From positions 4,874,307-4,938,306 of the forward strand of contig OZ251998.1 in the NCBI GenBank assembly GCA_965246985.1: 64,000 bases of DNA. Reading direction: 5' to 3'. The notes beneath the pieces were generated by a model. That model searched no databases. It saw only the letters and a program-made list of their open reading frames with translations, and had not been told where the DNA came from. This stretch comes from Candidatus Poribacteria bacterium. Its GTDB lineage: Bacteria; Poribacteria; WGA-4E; WGA-3G. A program made the translations under genes and the position numbers. Positions 21,809 to 27,253 of this stretch are shown here, piece after piece. Positions within the stretch are counted from its first letter, which is position 1. The number at the start of each line of letters is the position of its first letter.

Positions 21809-22313
21809 TTACCTTCTTTCCGGCGATTTAAGAGGCATTACAAAAGCCAAACACTTTTCATCACGTTCCATCGGTTCTACGGCAAATCCCATAGAGAGTT
21901 TGAGGTGATGGTTTTCAGGGTGATTCTCACCACTGACGGATCTGAACTTGGTAGCAGCCAAACATCTTCGCTTGCTTGAGGGTATATTCCTGAAGTGCCC
22001 TGCCGATGCCTTGCCGTCGGTATCCTTCTTTCACGCCAAATGCGAGGATTTTCGCCTCTTTTAGCGTCTTGCCATGCATTTGAATAGGTGGATGATCGCG
22101 GTCGTTGGGACCAATGTCCCATATAACAAACATGAGGAATCCAACGATAGTCTCATCCTGTTTCGCAGCCAAAAAATAGCGTGAAAACTGCTCAAAATAC
22201 GGGTTAAATGCCCAGTCTGCCTGATTTACATCGTTGACGAGCGCGACAAATTTCTGCCAATCCGGATGGTCGGCTGTCAACTCTTCAATGGAAAAATGAT
22301 GTTGCGTGTTCAT
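21809..22313 (-). pseudogene. GNAT acetyltransferase with a frameshift near the C-terminus
   Basis: VKEGYRRQGIG motif; after GCYQV another frame continues RSVSGENHPENHHLKLSMGF... to a stop at 21809. Confidence 0.7.
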
Positions 22314-22402
22314 CCATTGGCCCGTTTTCAAATCGGTTATGTTCAATTGAACGCAGTCTTTAGGGACAACCACAAGGGAAAGAAACACCCAAGCAAAACC
22401 CC

Positions 22403-23176
22403 CTACTTTGAAATTTTTATTGTTCCCCAAGTGAGTGCCAATTTCTGGGTCGGTTCAACAGCAAGTCCTACCGCGTCAAGGTTCTGTTCAATCTCCGCTT
22501 GACTTAGACCGCGGTTGTAGAGGCGAAGTTCGTCAAGAAGACCGTTGAAAGGGAGCCCATCCGATTTTCTGGCACCCATCCAAAAATTCTCTCCGTTATG
22601 TTTGAGAACACCTTCAAATTTTTTCTCATTATCCACTTCACCATTGATATAAATAATGGCTACGGAACCGTCGTAAACGCCAGCGACGTGATGCCATTTA
22701 CCTACATCGGGCTGACCCACGCTGTGAAAGGGCCACGTCTCTAAGGCACCGTTCCAGAGATTGAAATCAACCCGAGTTTGGTCTGACCACGCAATCACAT
22801 AAGAATTACTTCCTGACCTTGACATGCCAGCGATAATCGCCCAGCCAGCTTTTTCAGGCTTTATCCACATCTCCAATGTCATTTGGTCGCCAATGTCGGT
22901 TAAATTCTCACTTGCTCCACAATCAACATGGCCCCCACTAAACTTGAGTGCCTCACCGACTTTACCGTTAACAACCTCAACATTTCCATCCATGGTTCCA
23001 TCGTTGTCACCAAAAATGTCTTTAACCGTTTTACCTTCAACCGAAGCCTTATTAAAGGACCAGTAACTCACCAGCCCATCGGTAATCGCTTGGCGTGCTT
23101 GTGCTGTGTTTGTAGCCATTAGAACAGTTGTTATAACGGCTAAAACAAATATTTGTCTCAGAGTTCTGTTAATCAT
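22403..23176 (-). CDS. Secreted LamG/concanavalin-like domain protein
   Basis: Signal peptide, GLVSYWSF, WHHVAGVYDG, DELRLYNRGLS. Confidence 0.9.
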   Translation of the reverse strand: MINRTLRQIFVLAVITTVLMATNTAQARQAITDGLVSYWSFNKASVEGKTVKDIFGDNDGTMDGNVEVVNGKVGEALKFSGGHVDCGASENLTDIGDQMTLEMWIKPEKAGWAIIAGMSRSGSNSYVIAWSDQTRVDFNLWNGALETWPFHSVGQPDVGKWHHVAGVYDGSVAIIYINGEVDNEKKFEGVLKHNGENFWMGARKSDGLPFNGLLDELRLYNRGLSQAEIEQNLDAVGLAVEPTQKLALTWGTIKISK

Positions 23177-23506
23177 TTTGTCCTCCTGTTTCGGAATATT
23201 GGGTGCCTTTCGGTAATATTAAATTAATGTGAGTTCGATATAAGCGTGTAGGTTAGAAGCCCGACACATCCTCACACGTGCAGCGTTGGATTGTTGGGTT
23301 TCGCTATGTCTATTTCTATGAATGGACCATTGAATAGCAGGATTTTCCTGATAGACTGGCGGGTTCTTGGTCATTCACGGCTTTACCCAACCTACGGAGA
23401 TACTTATAGTTTGTATCAAATGACCCCATGAGTTAAACTAATAGTATGAGTTATCATAACAAGTAGATGTATTTGCATCACCGATAATCTACTCATGGAG
23501 GTCGAT

Positions 23507-24395
23507 ATGACACGCCAGAAGGATACCGCCTACGGTATCAAACGACTCGAATCTAAGAATGCCAGAGCTGCTATTATTCAGAAGATTTCCTCAGACTTTA
23601 ATCTCATGCCTATCGTGGCTGAAGCCTACTATAAACAGATTTCTACCTACTTTGAGCAGCACGCCGATGTTCAACTGTCCTCAGGGCAAATTTGCTATGA
23701 GGCAGTCGCCGCCGAGGAACCCGCAGGCAAACACATTGCTTTAGCGAAAAAAGTTTCCTGTCGACTCAAGCTCAACGATGTCGAAGCCGACCTTGAAGTC
23801 TTAGGCACTTATGGGCTCGCAGGTCTCAGACGGCATCGGATCCTCCGATTGACCCAAGAAGCTTATGACCAAGATGCCTTGCTGAGTTATACCAAATTAA
23901 CCCCGTTTGTAGCGCGAGGTCCCTGTGCCTCGCAATGCTGACTTGATCAAAAAACTTCTAATCAAGTTAATTTGGTATTATGAGGATTTGGCGGTGTTAT
24001 TAACCACCAGTCCGGCTACCGTCAAACGCGACATCCGAGCGTTGAAGCAGTCCGGCTATTTCGTGATGACGCGCGGGGCGAAACACGACATGGGCCCGGG
24101 GCTGTCTCATAAGACGCAGATTCTCGAGTTGTATTTCAAAGCATACACCTTCACCGAGATTGAGCAAAAGACGAACCACTCCGAACGGGCTGTCTACCGC
24201 TACTTGAGAGACTTCACACAAGTCGCCACGCTCCATCATCAAGGCTTTCCTGACGCACAGATACGGCTCATCACTCACCTCTCTGACCGACTCATACGGG
24301 AGTATCTCTCGCTGTATAAGGAATACCAACACACCGATCGCATGACCCAGCTCCTTCACCCAGAGCCCGTGGAGAAAAAAAAGGAGGATCTCTGA
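23507..24395 (+). pseudogene. DUF1670 protein A, split by an 88-bp MITE
   Basis: GGAGG RBS; GQICY, RILRLTQEAYDQDALLS|YEDLAVLL, TRG..HDMGPG.SHK, HS..AV.RY; removing 91 bp restores the frame. Confidence 0.85.
23890..23977. mobile_element. 88-bp MITE with IS630-like ends
   Basis: TACCAAATTAAC / GTTAATTTGGTA; TTA duplication; near-identical copy at 40928-41016. Confidence 0.9.
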
Positions 24396-25279
24396 TGAGC
24401 AAACCTTTGACGCGCACGCAAATCAACGAGAAGAAGTTCAGACGCATCAACGATAAATCCCTACGACAGTTGCTGATCCATCGCTTTCTCAATGACTACG
24501 GTTATGACAAAGGCGAAGTCACGGCGACGGCTATTGTTGATGATATTCTTAAGACCGTTGAAGACTATTTCGTGATTACCCTTCCTTTGGAGAAACTCGC
24601 CACGGGTGACGCACTCCCGGAGGAGCGGCTCCTCAGTTATGGACATCTCGTTTGGATGGCTGTCCCAATTGAGGAACATCCACAAAGAGGAAAGTCCATC
24701 GTCAAAACCCGAATGAAACCTGTCATCCTGACATACCTCGCTGCAGAGGATATTGAATCGTTTCGCAATGGCTTTACCTCTCGGCAATTGCGGATCAATC
24801 GCTTGGTCCGCTGGTGTCATCAAGCTTATGACCAAGGTGCCTTATTGACCCAACTCGACTTGGCAGTTTTGCTCAATGTCTGTGATGCTGTCGTCAGTGA
24901 TTATGTCAATGAATGGCAAAAAACCACTGGAGAACTTTTGCCCACTCGTGGTAATATCCATGATTTATCGGGGGCCATTACCCACAAGAAAGAGATCATA
25001 ACCCTCTATCTTCAAGGACATCTCACCCCGAGTATTGCCGCGAAAACCAAACACTCTAAGGAGGCAGTTGACCGATACATTCGCGATTATGAGAGCGTCA
25101 AAGTCGTTCGCACCGCAACCCGAGATATTGACGAAATCTCACAGATCACCCGACTTTCTAAACGCGTCATCTCTCAATATCTCGACCTTATTCCCAAGCA
25201 GCACCTCCAAGCCATAGATGCAAACCTCGCCAATGCAGCTGCAAACGATAAAGCAACGCACCAAGGAGAAGCCCAATGA
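24395..25279 (+). CDS. DUF1670 protein B
   Basis: RLVRWCHQAYDQGALLTQLDLAVLL, PTRGNIHD, THK, HS..AVDRY; translationally coupled to gene A (TGATG). Confidence 0.85.
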   Translation: MSKPLTRTQINEKKFRRINDKSLRQLLIHRFLNDYGYDKGEVTATAIVDDILKTVEDYFVITLPLEKLATGDALPEERLLSYGHLVWMAVPIEEHPQRGKSIVKTRMKPVILTYLAAEDIESFRNGFTSRQLRINRLVRWCHQAYDQGALLTQLDLAVLLNVCDAVVSDYVNEWQKTTGELLPTRGNIHDLSGAITHKKEIITLYLQGHLTPSIAAKTKHSKEAVDRYIRDYESVKVVRTATRDIDEISQITRLSKRVISQYLDLIPKQHLQAIDANLANAAANDKATHQGEAQ

Positions 25280-25346
25280 TACCATAACCCCCTGTTCCCG
25301 ACGAACTTTACTTCGCAAAACCGGGGCAGGTGCCTTGAAAATACGC

Positions 25347-25376
25347 TTGACAGTCCGCTACCGGTTTTGCTATACT
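25347..25376 (+). promoter_or_regulatory. Sigma70-like promoter inside the element's 3' non-coding region
   Basis: TTGACA-18 bp-TATACT with extended -10 TG. Confidence 0.65.
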
Positions 25377-25382
25377 TTAGAC

Positions 25383-25495
25383 ATGTTGATCGCTCAGCGC
25401 ATCATTTCTCGAAGAAGATGCCAGCGAACCCAACTCAACCCGCTCATCAACGATGGCTGCGAAGCTAATAAACATCAGCATTCCAGCTATCCTAT
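25383..25495 (+). ncRNA. Candidate structured RNA of the DUF1670 element
   Basis: Directly downstream of the promoter; hand-foldable into two stem-loops with a 19-nt bulge; no convincing ORF or RBS. Confidence 0.4.
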
Positions 25496-25709
25496 GGTCA
25501 TTTGATACTATTTGTATTTTATTATCGAACTCACGTTAAATTACCACCTTTTTATAGACATAGTACTCCGCTGGAGTGCGGGCACTTTAACGCACAGGTT
25601 TCTATTCTCACTGCGAAGCAATAGCACTCCGCTGGAGTGGAAAAACAGACTGATAACCCTCCGTTGAATGTATAAAACTCGTTAGGTCGCAACTTGGGTT
25701 TCAATTAAC

Positions 25710-26087
25710 TTACTCATCATATTCTACAACAACATCATCACCATCAACCTTGACGGGATACGTTGCCACGCGCAATGTTTCATCAACGAGGCACTGTCCG
25801 GTTGCAATATCAAATGTCCACTGATGCCATGGACATCGTAGCACCTCACCCAAACTGTCAACAGAAGGCATTACACCTTGAATTGAAGGCGGTGCGTCGG
25901 CGGCGAACCTACCGGTCAGTTCACCTGTACATAGGGGTCCCCGCTTATGCGGACAAATGTTACGGACTGCGTAAAAGGTGCCGTCAACATTAAAGACCCC
26001 AATGCCTGCTTTACCACGAAATGGCACGATGATTTTGCGTTCTCCCGGTGGAATCTCCGACACCTTCCCGACGACGACCCGTGCCAT
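25710..26087 (-). CDS. Rieske [2Fe-2S] protein
   Basis: CPH...CPWH. Confidence 0.9.
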   Translation of the reverse strand: MARVVVGKVSEIPPGERKIIVPFRGKAGIGVFNVDGTFYAVRNICPHKRGPLCTGELTGRFAADAPPSIQGVMPSVDSLGEVLRCPWHQWTFDIATGQCLVDETLRVATYPVKVDGDDVVVEYDE

Positions 26088-26089
26088 GA

Positions 26090-27253
26090 CTACTTATCCT
26101 CCAGTCGAAGCATATCAAGCGCGTTTTTGGCAAAAATTCGGTGGTGTAAGTCTTCTGGAAGCTTAGGGAAAACCGTTACTGGATCGTTCCAGTCAAAATG
26201 TGGGAAGTCTGAGCAGAATATCAACGTCTCATCGGCGTGGAGCATCTCTAACATCTGGTACATCTGTTCCGGTTTTTCAGGTTCATGCATCGGCTGCGAA
26301 CCGATTCGGATATGTTCACGGAAGTATTCACTCGGTAGACGTTTGAGCCAAGGGGTCTGGTCGCGCAATGCCTTCCAGTCGGTATCGAGATGCCACATCA
26401 CCGGCACTGCCCACATCTGTTGTGCTTCAATAAGCGCGAACTTGAGTTTAGGAAACTTTTCAAATACGCCTTCGCAGATCAGAGAAGTCGCGTGTGTGCT
26501 GGCGACATAAGGTCGGCTCATCCGAGATTCCATGTAGTAGGTGGGATGCCCGACTGGGGTTGGAATTGTGCGGGTTGCACCGCCGCCACCGCCGATATGA
26601 GATACAACTGGGAGTCCGTGTTGTTCGCATGCTTCCCAAATAGGATGATAAAAACGGTTGCCGAAGGGACGGCTTGTCCCCATCGGGACCATAACAGCGA
26701 CGGTATCCTTCCGGTCTGCAAGTCTGTTAATTTCTTCTACGGCTTGGGGTGGGTCAGATGGAGAGACGAGAATCGCATTAACGACGCGTTCGTCGCGTTC
26801 CAGCCAATGTTCGATTGTCCAATCGTTAAAGGCACGGCAGAGTGCAGCCGCCCAATCGGGATCCGGTAACCCAGAATACCCATAGAATGGCGGCGGTCCC
26901 GTAAGCAAGGCGACATCAATATTCCAGACATCCAGATGCTCGTCTTGGAGGAACTCTAAAGTAAAGTTAAAATCTCTCGGATCGCCGCCGGAGTTCTTGG
27001 GAATCGATTCAATGGCTTCTTCGACCCTCCCTTTGAGATCAACACGGTTGCTCCGAATCGGGATGTTGGGATACCCACCGAGATGTAGCCCTTGGTCGAG
27101 GAGGTGCTCCTGATAGAATTTTGACAGGTAAGGCAACAGTTGTGTCGGGTGGCGAAAGTTGTGGTGAACATCACAATCAACGATTGCTATACCCTCTTTC
27201 GGTTTCGCAGTCCAACCTGGTGCGGTAACAGGGGTTGATCCAATTTGACGCAT
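26090..27253 (-). CDS. Amidohydrolase family 2
   Basis: DCDVH, GVFEKFPKL, SDFPHFD. Confidence 0.9.
   Translation of the reverse strand: MRQIGSTPVTAPGWTAKPKEGIAIVDCDVHHNFRHPTQLLPYLSKFYQEHLLDQGLHLGGYPNIPIRSNRVDLKGRVEEAIESIPKNSGGDPRDFNFTLEFLQDEHLDVWNIDVALLTGPPPFYGYSGLPDPDWAAALCRAFNDWTIEHWLERDERVVNAILVSPSDPPQAVEEINRLADRKDTVAVMVPMGTSRPFGNRFYHPIWEACEQHGLPVVSHIGGGGGATRTIPTPVGHPTYYMESRMSRPYVASTHATSLICEGVFEKFPKLKFALIEAQQMWAVPVMWHLDTDWKALRDQTPWLKRLPSEYFREHIRIGSQPMHEPEKPEQMYQMLEMLHADETLIFCSDFPHFDWNDPVTVFPKLPEDLHHRIFAKNALDMLRLEDK

What the first reader, a model, noticed from the sequence alone, without database searches (positions are those of the whole stretch)
25290..25495. Promoter-driven structured RNA candidate in the element's 3' end, with a 19-nt unpaired segment resembling the target repeat
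Seen: after gene B come a hairpin (~25290-25330), a near-consensus promoter (TTGACA 25347-52; TGcTATACT to 25376) and ~110 nt that fold by hand. GTTGAT(25385-90) pairs with ATCAAC(25446-51), CGCT with AGCG and GCATC with GATGC, leaving AACCCAACTCAACCCGCTC (25427-45) unpaired. A second stem is GATGGCTG(25452-59)/CAGCTATC(25484-91). The bulge word AACCCAAC is complementary to GTTGGGTT at 23293-23300, ACCCAAC lies at 23385-91 about 20 bp from the insertion point, and AACCCGC is complementary to 23359-65. Known: IS110/IS1111 bridge/seek RNAs are encoded in non-coding element ends and direct targeting, some to REP repeats. Inference (speculative, since matches are only 7-8 nt): a guide or regulatory RNA for the DUF1670 proteins.
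Basis: partly seen in the sequence, partly recalled or inferred. Interest (0 to 1): 0.75.

Follow-up and report, generated by a model that had tools for sequence, protein, structure and literature searches.

The report
Outward promoter in DUF1670 element end
The stretch is the right-hand non-coding end of a small jumping gene in a sponge bacterium; it holds a well-conserved outward-pointing promoter and two hairpins, but it is an optional add-on of this lineage and not a guide RNA that chooses the insertion site.

Summary
The sequence facts are real. The guide-RNA reading fails.

**The element.** Window 23401-25513 is one of 7 copies of a two-gene DUF1670 insertion element in a Candidatus Poribacteria genome. 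Earlier agents of this scan found the family on other DNA.

**What holds up**
- TTGACA-18-TGcTATACT (25347-25376) is conserved in 46 of 46 unique homologous ends.
- The 131 nt downstream diverge at 0.11-0.72 times the synonymous rate of gene B.
- Two hairpins recur: H1 (25389-25428) and H2 (25452-25491).

**What does not**
- The long-range GTTGAT/ATCAAC stem and the 25290-25330 hairpin are not conserved.
- Covariation is absent within the closest group and only moderate across groups.

**Evidence against a guide**
- The "bulge" matches its own flanks no better than other elements' flanks (5.83 vs 5.81 nt, 69 elements).
- It is deleted in 8 of 46 variants.
- Elements with near-identical RNA regions sit in different targets.
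- Promoter-less miniature derivatives still sit in the usual target.
- Two distant family members with the same ends and target type have right ends of only 32-40 nt.

**Best reading (0.4).** This is a lineage-specific regulatory module. An outward promoter lies behind the genes. H2 is probably part of the cis-acting end.

The parts
23401..25513 (+). One copy of the two-gene DUF1670 insertion element (2113 bp including a nested 91-bp insert). The last 5 nt, TATTT, may belong to the target.
   Evidence: There are 7 full copies in the genome with identical ends. Flanks diverge exactly at these coordinates.
23413..23425 (+). Left subterminal inverted repeat, GTATCAAATGACC.
   Evidence: It is a perfect complement of 25496-25508. 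It is also conserved in distant family members.
23495..24395 (+). Gene A (DUF1670), split in this copy by a nested 91-bp repeat.
   Evidence: Pfam PF07900 matches both halves (E 6e-17 and 2.6e-38). The intact 269-aa form is present in copy c5.
23887..23977 (.). Nested miniature repeat (about 91 bp with its duplication) that breaks gene A.
   Evidence: It is absent from 5 of 7 copies. About 45 further copies lie in the genome, some in tandem. RNA contigs join 23886 to 23978.
24395..25279 (+). Gene B (DUF1670, 294 aa).
   Evidence: Pfam PF07900 E 2.1e-61. The AF2 model has pLDDT 86.9, and only HTH and winged-helix parts find weak structural matches.
25280..25346 (+). Spacer between gene B and the promoter.
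   Evidence: 16 relatives have no consensus structure here.
25347..25376 (+). Outward-facing sigma-70-type promoter: TTGACA, 18 nt, TGcTATACT.
   Evidence: Scores 11 of 12 plus TG. Conserved in 46 of 46 unique homologous ends.
25383..25513 (+). Predicted transcribed leader or RNA, from the inferred start (7 nt after the -10) to the element tip. The 3' end is unknown.
   Evidence: Divergence is 0.11-0.72 of the 4-fold-site rate. Mean fold z is -2.1, with 22 of 38 below -2. RNA-library contigs cover it. The start site is inferred, not shown.
25389..25428 (+). Hairpin H1: ATCGCT/AGCGAA outer, GCATC/GATGC middle, TTCT/AGAA inner.
   Evidence: Group-1 consensus fold. No covariation within that group. 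Double changes appear across groups in a model-fitted alignment. Replaced by a 6-bp hairpin in the deletion variants. Its 5' arm is missing from the miniature derivatives read.
25429..25451 (+).
   Evidence: One of the two least constrained segments, at 0.66 of the synonymous rate. Largely deleted in 8 of 46 variants. No relation to own flanks.
25452..25491 (+). Hairpin H2: GATGGCTGCGAAG / CATTCCAGCTATC with the conserved loop CTAATAAACATCAG.
   Evidence: Present in both subgroup consensus folds. Kept in all 7 promoter-less derivatives read, in L085 with a C-G to T-A change read by eye. Absent from the short right ends of L182 and L183.
25496..25508 (+). Right inverted repeat, GGTCATTTGATAC.
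   Evidence: W125-W137 of the closing stretch GGTCATTTGATACTATTT (W120-W137) are invariant in 38 of 38. Wider sets have variants such as GGTCATATGATAC. Conserved in L181 and L182, with a variant in L183.
25509..25513 (+). TATTT, the reverse complement of AAATA. It supplies Lys plus the first two bases of the stop codon of the target gene and is probably the target's own core.
   Evidence: Target ORFs end inside the element's last 6 nt. K-stop ends 42 of 44 CTD-type genes, including AAATAG 15 and AAATAA 8. The last base of the left flank is T or C in 6 of 7 copies.
23219..23400 (.). Left part of a roughly 230-bp host repeat into which this copy has inserted. Its right part is about 25514-25541.
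   Evidence: 67 BLAST matches to the left flank, its own site included. Uninterrupted copies run on from ...cctacgg into ...caatttttattatcgaactcacgtt.

Best explanation
The finding is the 234-nt right-end non-coding region of a site-specific insertion element whose only genes are two DUF1670 helix-turn-helix proteins.

**What the region contains**
- A functional outward-facing extended -10 promoter (25347-76). This is inferred from conservation.
- A 131-nt leader with two hairpins (H1, H2) that runs to the element tip.
- The terminal inverted repeat.

**What it is.** The promoter, H1 and linker are a lineage-specific accessory module of the Poribacteria elements. They are not part of the family's core machinery and do not choose the target. 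H2 and the terminal repeat behave as the cis-acting end, because promoter-less miniature derivatives keep them.

**Most likely mechanism (inferred).** The promoter sits behind the genes and points out of the element. It is therefore uncoupled from genes A and B while the element is integrated. It can drive them only when right and left ends are joined, as in an excised circle or a head-to-tail form, in the manner of junction-dependent promoters of other insertion sequences. In the integrated state it transcribes outwards, against the converging host gene. Target choice is made by the proteins reading TATTT plus the degenerate end of the C-terminal sorting-domain gene.
For: **Element and family**
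- 7 copies with identical ends.
- Gene-B homologues in 46 of 176 genomes of the phylum.

**Promoter.** In 46 unique ends, TATACT is kept in 44, TG in 46 and TTGACA in 30. The spacer is 17 or 18. The hexamers are more conserved than the spacer, at 0.93 and 0.99 against 0.74.

**Constraint on the leader.** Divergence relative to 4-fold sites (0.46) is 0.72 for the 5' part, 0.53 for H1, 0.66 for the linker, 0.39 for H2 and 0.11 for the tip (23 sequences, 253 pairs).

**Accessory nature**
- L182 carries two DUF1670 genes, and its gene B is 54% identical to ours. It has the same inverted repeat and the same ...GGTCATTTGATACTATTT end only 32 nt after the stop codon. It sits on the last codon of a CTD-type gene (...KKAVILK*).
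- L183 has a 40-nt right end next to ...STKKMLLLK*.

**Cis end**
- 7 miniature derivatives were read out of 12 fetched. They keep 106-129 nt of the left end and only 53-112 nt of the right end.
- They lack this promoter. All keep H2. Six of the 7 sit at clearly typical targets, and L084's flank is degenerate.

**Genes lack a conserved own promoter of comparable quality.** Only a 9-of-12 hybrid site at the left junction was found.

**Transcription plausible.** RNA-library contigs of two studies cover 25315-25513. One contig identical to the window (X6 record 31, depth 69) is at a depth like those over gene B (48-78).
Against: - No joined right-end/left-end form was seen. There was none among the joints listed for 4 RNA runs (1687 pieces were not shown), in 176 genomes of the phylum or in the viral contig collection.
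- The start site, the 3' end and the strand of any transcript are not shown, because only contigs were available.
- If the promoter were needed to express A and B after excision, family members without it (L182, L183) must manage otherwise.
- A possible CCATGAG/CTCATGG pairing in the left end, read by eye, would hide the ribosome-binding site of gene A in any transcript that enters from outside.
- The constraint on H1 is not explained by a bare promoter function.
Confidence: 0.4

Rival explanations
1. The promoter makes a discrete right-end RNA (H1, linker, H2, terminal repeat) that works in trans with the DUF1670 proteins. It could be a scaffold or copy-number regulator. It could also run a few nucleotides into the flank and mark the occupied or emptied site, as the omega RNAs of TnpB/IscB elements do.
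For: - The promoter is conserved about 131 nt inside the tip and points outward.
- The whole leader is under constraint.
- Folds are better than shuffles, with mean z -2.1 and 22 of 38 below -2.
- Both hairpins recur in diverged groups. 15 pairs carry double changes against 8.4 in shuffles (0 of 500) in a model-fitted alignment of 58 distinct sequences.
- G-U cells outnumber A-C cells, 121 to 75.
- An earlier scan note (e1-1926432, unchecked) reports a conserved folded RNA in DUF1670 elements of another genome.
- Elements with near-identical RNA regions lie in different target classes. A flank-derived guide would allow this.
Against: - RNAalifold finds no consensus on the sequence-based alignment of 38.
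- There is no covariation within the 24 closest sequences: 87.2% paired against 87.6% in shuffles, with 1 double change.
- The G-U excess rests mostly on two positions.
- The module is absent from L182 and L183, so it cannot be a core cofactor of the family.
- The proteins show no recognised nuclease or RNA-binding fold. The best VIA Z is 6.3, and only on helix-turn-helix parts.
- First flank bases differ widely among copies of one genome. This argues against strict pairing to paralogous targets.
Confidence: 0.2
2. The promoter serves in the integrated state. It fires against the host gene that converges on the right end. It either shields genes A and B and the end from incoming transcription, or it makes antisense RNA to the 3' end of the sorting-domain gene.
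For: - In 6 of 7 copies here, and in most of the 104 flank sets read, the right end abuts the last codon of a gene on the opposite strand. The promoter therefore always faces that gene.
- The promoter is strongly conserved.
Against: - This reading does not explain the constraint on H1 and the leader.
- Family members at the same kind of site lack the promoter.
- No terminator-like site follows within the element.
- Antisense transcripts could not be examined, because contigs carry no strand information.
Confidence: 0.2
3. One reading: a bridge/seek-type guide RNA whose unpaired 19-nt segment pairs with the target repeat and directs insertion.
For: - There is a non-coding region of significant length after the genes, subterminal inverted repeats, and strict site and orientation specificity. 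The IS1111 paper describes the same for that group (PMC11187229, abstract and passages).
- The 7-8-nt words are really present.
Against: - The longest match of the linker to its own flanks (+/-40 nt) averages 5.83 nt. Against flanks of other elements it averages 5.81 nt (69 elements). The window's 7-nt match is reached by 12 of 69.
- The matched repeat is an atypical target, used by 1 of 7 copies.
- L044 lies in a CTD target and L057 in the 'caaaactcggtttctt' target. They differ at 2 positions of the linker, read by eye.
- The segment is deleted in 8 of 46 variants, including those of a genome with 13 protein matches.
- It is one of the two least constrained segments.
- The proteins are DUF1670, with no IS110-type Pfam domain at E <= 0.01.
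- The module is absent in L182 and L183 although the target is the same.
Confidence: 0.03
4. Nothing is transcribed. The conserved words and hairpins are DNA sites of the right end, that is protein-binding repeats or single-strand hairpins. The promoter likeness is incidental to those sites.
For: - Conservation rises towards the tip.
- H2 is kept in promoter-less derivatives.
- Hairpin pairing shows no clear strand bias in H1, with G-U 55 against A-C 44.
- There is no covariation within the closest group.
Against: - The pattern of conservation is that of a promoter. Both hexamers, the TG and the spacer length are kept while the spacer sequence drifts.
- Miniature derivatives that need only cis sites have lost exactly this part.
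- RNA-library contigs cover the region.
Confidence: 0.12

Closest known systems
IS1111/IS110 elements with seekRNA or bridge RNA (ISEc11, ISEc21: Siddiquee et al. 2024, PMC11187229, abstract and passages read; IS621: Durrant et al. 2024, PMC11208160, named in earlier scan notes and not read here)
   Same: Small element with a long non-coding region after the gene(s), as in the IS1111 group. It has subterminal inverted repeats. Insertion is site- and orientation-specific, with no evident duplication made at each insertion.
   Different: - The proteins are DUF1670 helix-turn-helix proteins, not DEDD transposases.
- The RNA region shows no complementarity to target or flanks above chance.
- It does not change with the target.
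- It is dispensable in family members with the same target.
- The promoter lies complete inside the right end. In those families it is created by abutting the ends (PMC11187229, introduction passage).
Junction-dependent expression in insertion sequences (Pjunc of ISEc11, cited as reference 22 in PMC11187229; IS3/IS30-type junction promoters and Tn916, recalled, not read here)
   Same: A promoter at one end points out of the element. It would read into the genes only when the two ends are joined.
   Different: Here both hexamers lie in one end, 131 nt from the tip, with a constrained structured leader between. No joined form has been seen.
Right-end (omega) RNAs of IS200/IS605-type TnpB and IscB elements (recalled, not read here)
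   Same: A conserved RNA-like scaffold lies next to the right end and is oriented outward. Insertion occurs beside a short fixed word (here TATTT) in one orientation. There are hairpins near the ends.
   Different: No RuvC-type nuclease gene is present. The proteins have only helix-turn-helix matches. Read-through into the flank is not shown, and covariation support is weak.
Two-gene DUF1670 insertion elements noted earlier in this scan (e1-3003129, e1-3003130, e1-1447963, e1-923537). No paper holds the word DUF1670.
   Same: Two paralogous DUF1670 genes are the only cargo. Insertion is on the last codon of genes for proteins with a type IX-like C-terminal sorting domain, always in one orientation.
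   Different: The Poribacteria lineage has a 234-nt right end with a promoter and two hairpins. Other members read here have 32-, 40- or 184-nt right ends.

Membership tests
IS110/IS1111 bridge/seek-RNA elements | DEDD (RuvC-like) transposase of the IS110 type | tested here: not met
   Pfam gives only DUF1670 and helix-turn-helix families for genes A and B at E <= 0.01. Fold searches show only HTH and winged-helix matches with Z <= 6.3. That fold result alone would be inconclusive.
IS110/IS1111 bridge/seek-RNA elements | Non-coding region of significant length beside the transposase gene (downstream in IS1111) | tested here: met
   234 nt lie between the gene B stop (25279) and the element tip (25513). 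The feature is as stated in PMC11187229.
IS110/IS1111 bridge/seek-RNA elements | RNA segments complementary to the target flanks, changing with the target | tested here: not met
   - Own-flank matches average 5.83 nt against 5.81 nt for foreign flanks (69 elements).
- L044 and L057 have near-identical RNA regions but different targets.
- The segment is deleted in 8 of 46 variants.
IS110/IS1111 bridge/seek-RNA elements | Circular intermediate with abutted ends that creates a promoter | tested here: inconclusive
   No abutted ends were found among the listed joints of 4 RNA runs, in 176 genomes or in viral contigs. Assemblies rarely hold such forms.
IS110/IS1111 bridge/seek-RNA elements | Subterminal inverted repeats (IS1111 group) | tested here: met
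   A 13-bp perfect repeat starts 12 nt from the left tip and ends 5 nt (or 0 nt) from the right tip.
OMEGA systems (TnpB/IscB with right-end RNA) | RuvC-type RNA-guided nuclease encoded in the element | tested here: not met
   No such Pfam family was found in genes A or B. There are no other ORFs of 150 aa or more on the + strand of the element.
OMEGA systems (TnpB/IscB with right-end RNA) | RNA scaffold ending at the element boundary and continuing into a flank-derived guide | not testable with these tools
   Only assembled contigs of RNA runs were available. They end at the boundary because the flanks of the copies differ.
Structured non-coding RNA (any family) | Match to a curated RNA family | tested here: not met
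   Rfam 15 searched over 22000-27000 at E <= 1 gave only two chance-level rows, snoTBR7 and bxd_5.
Structured non-coding RNA (any family) | Conserved secondary structure supported by compensatory changes | tested here: inconclusive
   - No consensus on 38 sequences.
- No covariation within 24 close sequences.
- 15 pairs with double changes against 8.4 in shuffles, in a model-fitted alignment of 58 distinct sequences. That alignment leans towards the structure.
Two-gene DUF1670 insertion elements (provisional family of this scan) | Two paralogous DUF1670 genes as the only cargo, between conserved GTATCAAATGACC-type inverted repeats | tested here: met
Two-gene DUF1670 insertion elements (provisional family of this scan) | Insertion on the last codon of genes with a type IX-like C-terminal sorting domain, in one orientation | tested here: met
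   Met by 6 of 7 copies in this genome, though not by the window's own copy. Target ORFs end inside the element's last 6 nt. The same holds for L181 and L182, and for L183 beside a broken gene end.

The most novel reading that the evidence does not exclude
The Poribacteria DUF1670 elements have acquired a right-end RNA of about 130 nt that is made from its own promoter. It binds the two helix-turn-helix proteins and either tunes transposition with copy number or, by running into the flank, marks the occupied site. This would be an RNA partner for a transposition system that has no recognisable catalytic domain, evolved independently of bridge, seek and omega RNAs.
Probability: 0.12. Interest if true: 0.85.

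Novelty: new variant of a known kind. Interest (0 to 1): 0.45.

Why it matters
**An undescribed family.** DUF1670-only insertion elements appear to be undescribed in print: a full-text search for DUF1670 found no paper. They insert with base precision at the last codon of secreted-protein genes, yet carry no recognisable DNA-cutting enzyme.

**What this result rules out.** Any clue to how they work is valuable, and a guide RNA would have been the obvious answer. The right-end region is not that guide. Elements without it use the same ends and the same target, so the proteins themselves must read the site.

**What is left.** A strongly conserved outward promoter remains, with a constrained, hairpin-forming leader, found so far only in the Poribacteria elements among those read. 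It is a concrete handle for experiments on how these elements control their own expression.

**Material for reconstitution.** The work also defines the minimal cis ends, at most about 130 nt on the left and 55-80 nt on the right, from natural miniature derivatives.

Tried and rejected
- **Small protein.** A 40-codon frame starts at the inferred transcript start (ATG 25383). It is broken by stops or lacks a start in most of 38 relatives. Rejected.
- **Curated RNA family.** Rfam gave nothing.
No consensus structure.
- **Terminator behind gene B or behind H2.** No terminator-like site on the + strand there.
- **Circle or tandem junction.**
  - Not among the joints listed for 4 RNA runs.
  - Not in 176 genomes.
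  - Not in viral contigs.
  - This is no proof of absence.
- **RNA abundance.**
  - A 183-nt variant contig over 25315-25481 has depth 4387 in one size-fractionated RNA library.
  - It includes the promoter region.
  - Bins inside gene B reach similar summed depths (2852 and 8469).
  - It is therefore no evidence for a discrete small RNA.
- **Empty-site search.** A search with the left flank of copy c7 failed as such a search. I included 500 nt of the element by mistake, and the flank is itself repetitive. It did reveal the miniature derivatives.
- **Distant relatives.**
  - The protein word search and the genome-contig scan returned only close Poribacteria relatives.
  - An alignment of 28 distant proteins was too diverse for the metagenome scan (error).
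  - A single distant protein then worked.
- **Fold of gene B.** Foldseek against PDB gave no match below E 0.39. The wide VIA search gave at best Z 6.3 on helix-turn-helix parts, including the winged helix of topoisomerase VI-A/Spo11, within the noise range given by the tool.
- **Strand bias of wobble pairs**. Too weak to tell RNA from DNA hairpins.
- **Not followed.** The lead that an IS3 group shares an RNA with DUF1670 elements (e1-1926432). In this genome the module occurs only in the 7 copies and 2 right-end remnants.
- **Not seen.** Supplements of PMC11187229 were not opened; they may hold the seekRNA structures.
Full report
**Setting.** Window 23401-25513 is one copy of a small mobile element.
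- A search of the window's own genome found seven full copies whose sequence stops being alike exactly at these coordinates. The genome is 6.68 Mb in one contig. Source names of close protein relatives and of related records call it Candidatus Poribacteria.
- The element carries two overlapping genes, both Pfam DUF1670 (PF07900), with helix-turn-helix sub-matches and nothing else.
- In the window's copy and one other, gene A is split by a nested 91-bp repeat that has about 45 further copies in the genome.
- Copy c3 has a frameshift in gene A. Copy c5 has an intact 269-aa gene A.
- A 13-bp perfect inverted repeat lies 12 nt inside the left tip (23413-25) and 5 nt inside the right tip (25496-508).
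- No paper in the library holds the word DUF1670.
- Earlier agents of this scan described the same kind of element on other DNA.

**Target.**
- In six of the seven copies the right flank is homologous DNA: the reverse strand of the 3' end of genes whose products end in a type IX-like C-terminal sorting domain.
- The target ORFs end inside the last 6 nt of the element.
- Of 44 such gene ends found in this genome, 42 end in Lys-stop. AAATAG occurs 15 times, AAATAA 8, AAGTAA 11 and AAGTAG 6.
- The base before the left tip is T or C in six of seven copies.
- The simplest reading is that the element inserts just 5' of a TATTT that belongs to the target (Lys plus TA of the stop). The element proper would then end at 25508. 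This is inference.
- The window's own copy is the exception. It sits in a roughly 230-bp repeat with 67 BLAST matches to the left flank, its own site included, whose uninterrupted copies run on across the insertion point.

**The observation.**
- The promoter scores 11 of 12 with an extended TG. The region holds no more promoter-like sites than shuffles do (3 against 3.7 +/- 2.1).
- The conservation of this site is striking. Among 46 unique right ends, from elements whose gene B is 70-95% identical, TATACT is kept in 44, TG in 46 and TTGACA in 30. All remaining -35 variants keep at least 4 of 6, and the spacer is 17 or 18 nt. The spacer sequence and the upstream DNA drift: column identity is 0.74 and 0.71, against 0.93 and 0.99 for the hexamers.
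- I take the promoter as real. The start near 25383 is inferred.

**Structure.**
- The window's RNA folds at -31.8 kcal/mol, z -2.44.
- Over 38 homologues the mean z is -2.1, and 22 are below -2.
- RNAalifold finds no consensus on the sequence-based alignment of all 38: 3 trivial pairs.
Pairs with double changes are no more frequent than in shuffles (9 against 8.8, with 292 of 500 shuffles as high).
- Its long-range GTTGAT/ATCAAC stem is broken in many sequences. One pair is unpaired in 24 of 38 and another in 17 of 38.
- Folded by subgroup, the 25 closest sequences give two hairpins (-36.8 kcal/mol), H1 at 25389-25428 and H2 at 25452-25491. The 13 more distant ones give H2 clearly and only the tip of H1.
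- Within 24 close sequences there is no covariation: 87.2% paired against 87.6% in shuffles, one double change, and many disruptive changes.
- A covariance model built on these 24 sequences aligned 77 hits, 58 of them distinct. There 84.6% of cells pair against 79.3%, and 15 pairs have double changes against 8.4 (0 of 500 shuffles). Such an alignment leans towards its model.
- G-U cells outnumber A-C cells 121 to 75, mostly at two positions.
- The hairpins therefore recur, but the data do not decide between RNA and DNA hairpins.
- A 40-codon frame from the inferred start is not conserved.
- Rfam has no match.

**Constraint.** Against a divergence of 0.46 at 4-fold sites of gene B (23 sequences, 253 pairs), the segments diverge as follows.

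| Segment | Divergence | Ratio to 4-fold sites |
|---|---|---|
| First 9 nt | 0.33 | 0.72 |
| H1 | 0.24 | 0.53 |
| Linker with the "bulge" | 0.30 | 0.66 |
| H2 | 0.18 | 0.39 |
| Last 22 nt | 0.05 | 0.11 |

The whole stretch is under some selection. The selection is weakest where a guide to a conserved target should be most conserved.

**Tests of the guide idea.**
1. For 69 full elements with both flanks, the longest exact match, on either strand, between the 35-nt linker and +/-40 nt of its own flanks averages 5.83 nt. With flanks of other elements it averages 5.81 nt. The window's 7-nt match is reached by 12 of 69.
2. Eight of 46 unique ends, from six genomes, lack about 34 nt. The missing stretch includes most of H1 and the AACCCAACTCAAC words. 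One of these genomes has 13 protein matches.
3. A second target class (TATTT followed by c.tcaaaactcggtttctt) is used by L050, L051, L052, L053, L056 and L057. L044 lies in a normal target, and its linker differs from that of L057 at two positions, read by eye.
4. Non-autonomous miniature derivatives occur in related genomes. Of 12 fetched, 7 were read in full.
   - They keep 106-129 nt of the left end and 53-112 nt of the right end and lack this promoter.
   - Three keep little beyond H2 and the tip.
   - Six of the 7 lie at clearly typical targets, and L084's flank is degenerate.
   - H2 is kept in all seven. In L085 a C-G pair has become T-A, read by eye.
5. Metagenome contigs fetched with a distant homologue hold family members with two DUF1670 genes and the same ends.
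   - L182's gene B is 54% identical to ours. Only 32 nt separate its stop codon from ...GGTCATTTGATACTATTT, and it sits on the last codon of a gene ending ...KKAVILK*.
   - L183 has 40 nt and abuts ...STKKMLLLK*.
   - L181 has 184 nt of unrelated sequence and abuts ...KKLIIMR*.
   - The module is therefore not needed for the family's ends or target choice.
   - These are single contigs, so activity of those copies is not shown.

**Transcription.**
- One search found 22 runs. Four RNA runs from two studies, held as contigs only, were laid on 23250-25650.
- Contigs cover 25315-25513. One identical to the window has depth 69, next to 48-78 over gene B.
- A variant contig over 25315-25481 has depth 4387 in one size-fractionated library. 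It includes the promoter region, and bins inside gene B reach 2852 and 8469. It says nothing about a discrete RNA.
- Contigs stop at 25513, as expected where the copies' flanks differ.
- No joint of right end to left end is among the joints listed.
- A joint from 23451 to 25488 points to still smaller derivatives.

**Proteins.**
- An AlphaFold2 model of gene B, built on 74 aligned sequences, has pLDDT 86.9.
- Foldseek finds nothing below E 0.39 in PDB.
- The wide VIA search gives at best Z 6.3. It covers only the winged-helix (126-192) and helix-turn-helix (195-260) parts, within the noise range stated by the tool.
- H197, H220 and Y228 are invariant in the 74 sequences.

**Reading.**
- Shown: the region is the right end of a site-specific DUF1670 element. 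Its promoter is conserved, its leader is constrained, and two hairpins recur. The linker has no relation to targets. The module is lineage-specific.
- Inferred: H2 and the terminal repeat are the cis-acting end. The promoter, H1 and linker are a regulatory add-on.
- I commit at 0.4 to an outward promoter that can reach genes A and B only when the ends are joined and otherwise fires against the converging host gene.
- I give about 0.85 to the narrower statement that this is not a target guide.
- Rivals are a trans-acting right-end RNA, possibly reading into the flank (0.2), a role only against the host gene's transcription (0.2), DNA sites without transcription (0.12), and the bridge-type guide (0.03).

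Noticed in passing
window 23887-23977: A 91-bp miniature repeat (with its duplication) splits gene A in this copy and in copy c2. About 45 further copies at 92-100% identity lie in the genome, several in tandem runs of two or three. It is very deeply covered in RNA-library contigs.
   Followed up: partly
window 23219-23400 and 25514-25541: This is a roughly 230-bp repeat with terminal inverted repeats (TTAATGTGAGTTCGATA / TATCGAACTCACGTTAA) and an internal GTTGGGT/ACCCAAC pair. 67 BLAST matches hit its left part (its own site included). A right-end remnant of the DUF1670 element elsewhere (G000:C1:5444793-5444895) is fused to the same repeat at the same point...cctacgga. The reason for this shared break point is unexplained.
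   Followed up: partly
L079-L090 (relatives G138, G174, G127, G135 and others): These are non-autonomous derivatives of the element, 213-544 bp long. They keep the left end up to the first codons of gene A and 53-112 nt of the right end. Several are filled with palindromic CACTCCGCTGGAGTG units and GATCGCGAGTAAAACTCGCTCCTACA repeats. Six of the 7 read lie at clearly typical sorting-domain gene ends.
   Followed up: partly
L050, L051, L052, L053, L056, L057 (right flanks): A second recurrent target, TATTT followed by c.tcaaaactcggtttctt, is used by the more distant Poribacteria elements. In L050 the frame that would give Lys-stop has a stop 7 codons upstream, so this target may be non-coding (frame read by eye).
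   Followed up: partly
L047, about 620 on the reverse strand: A different hairpin-bearing end (…GGTTATTTGATAC) abuts the left tip of a DUF1670 element, sharing one TATTT. It looks as if a related element had inserted 5' of the TATTT that begins the left end.
   Followed up: no
proteins P0133, P0134, P0141, P0143: Proteins of 930-952 aa match gene B in three separate stretches. They look like fusions of three DUF1670 modules. H197, H220 and Y228 of gene B are invariant in 74 aligned family members.
   Followed up: no
window 25555-25645: Two copies of a palindromic unit (ACTCCGCTGGAGTG) lie just right of the element. One is flagged as terminator-like on the minus strand. The same unit fills the miniature derivatives in relatives and is very deeply covered in RNA-library contigs.
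   Followed up: no
G000 copies c3, c4, c7 (L003, L004, L007): Copies c3 and c4 are 4 nt longer, and c7 is 5 nt longer, than the intact copies c5 and c6. In c3 gene A is frameshifted. Probably only two of the seven copies encode both proteins.
   Followed up: partly
L181 3811-3998: A distant family member has a 184-nt right end unrelated in sequence to ours. It holds a long hairpin (GGGAAAC…GTTTCCC, read by eye) about 45 nt before the terminal repeat. Right-end hairpins may have arisen more than once.
   Followed up: no
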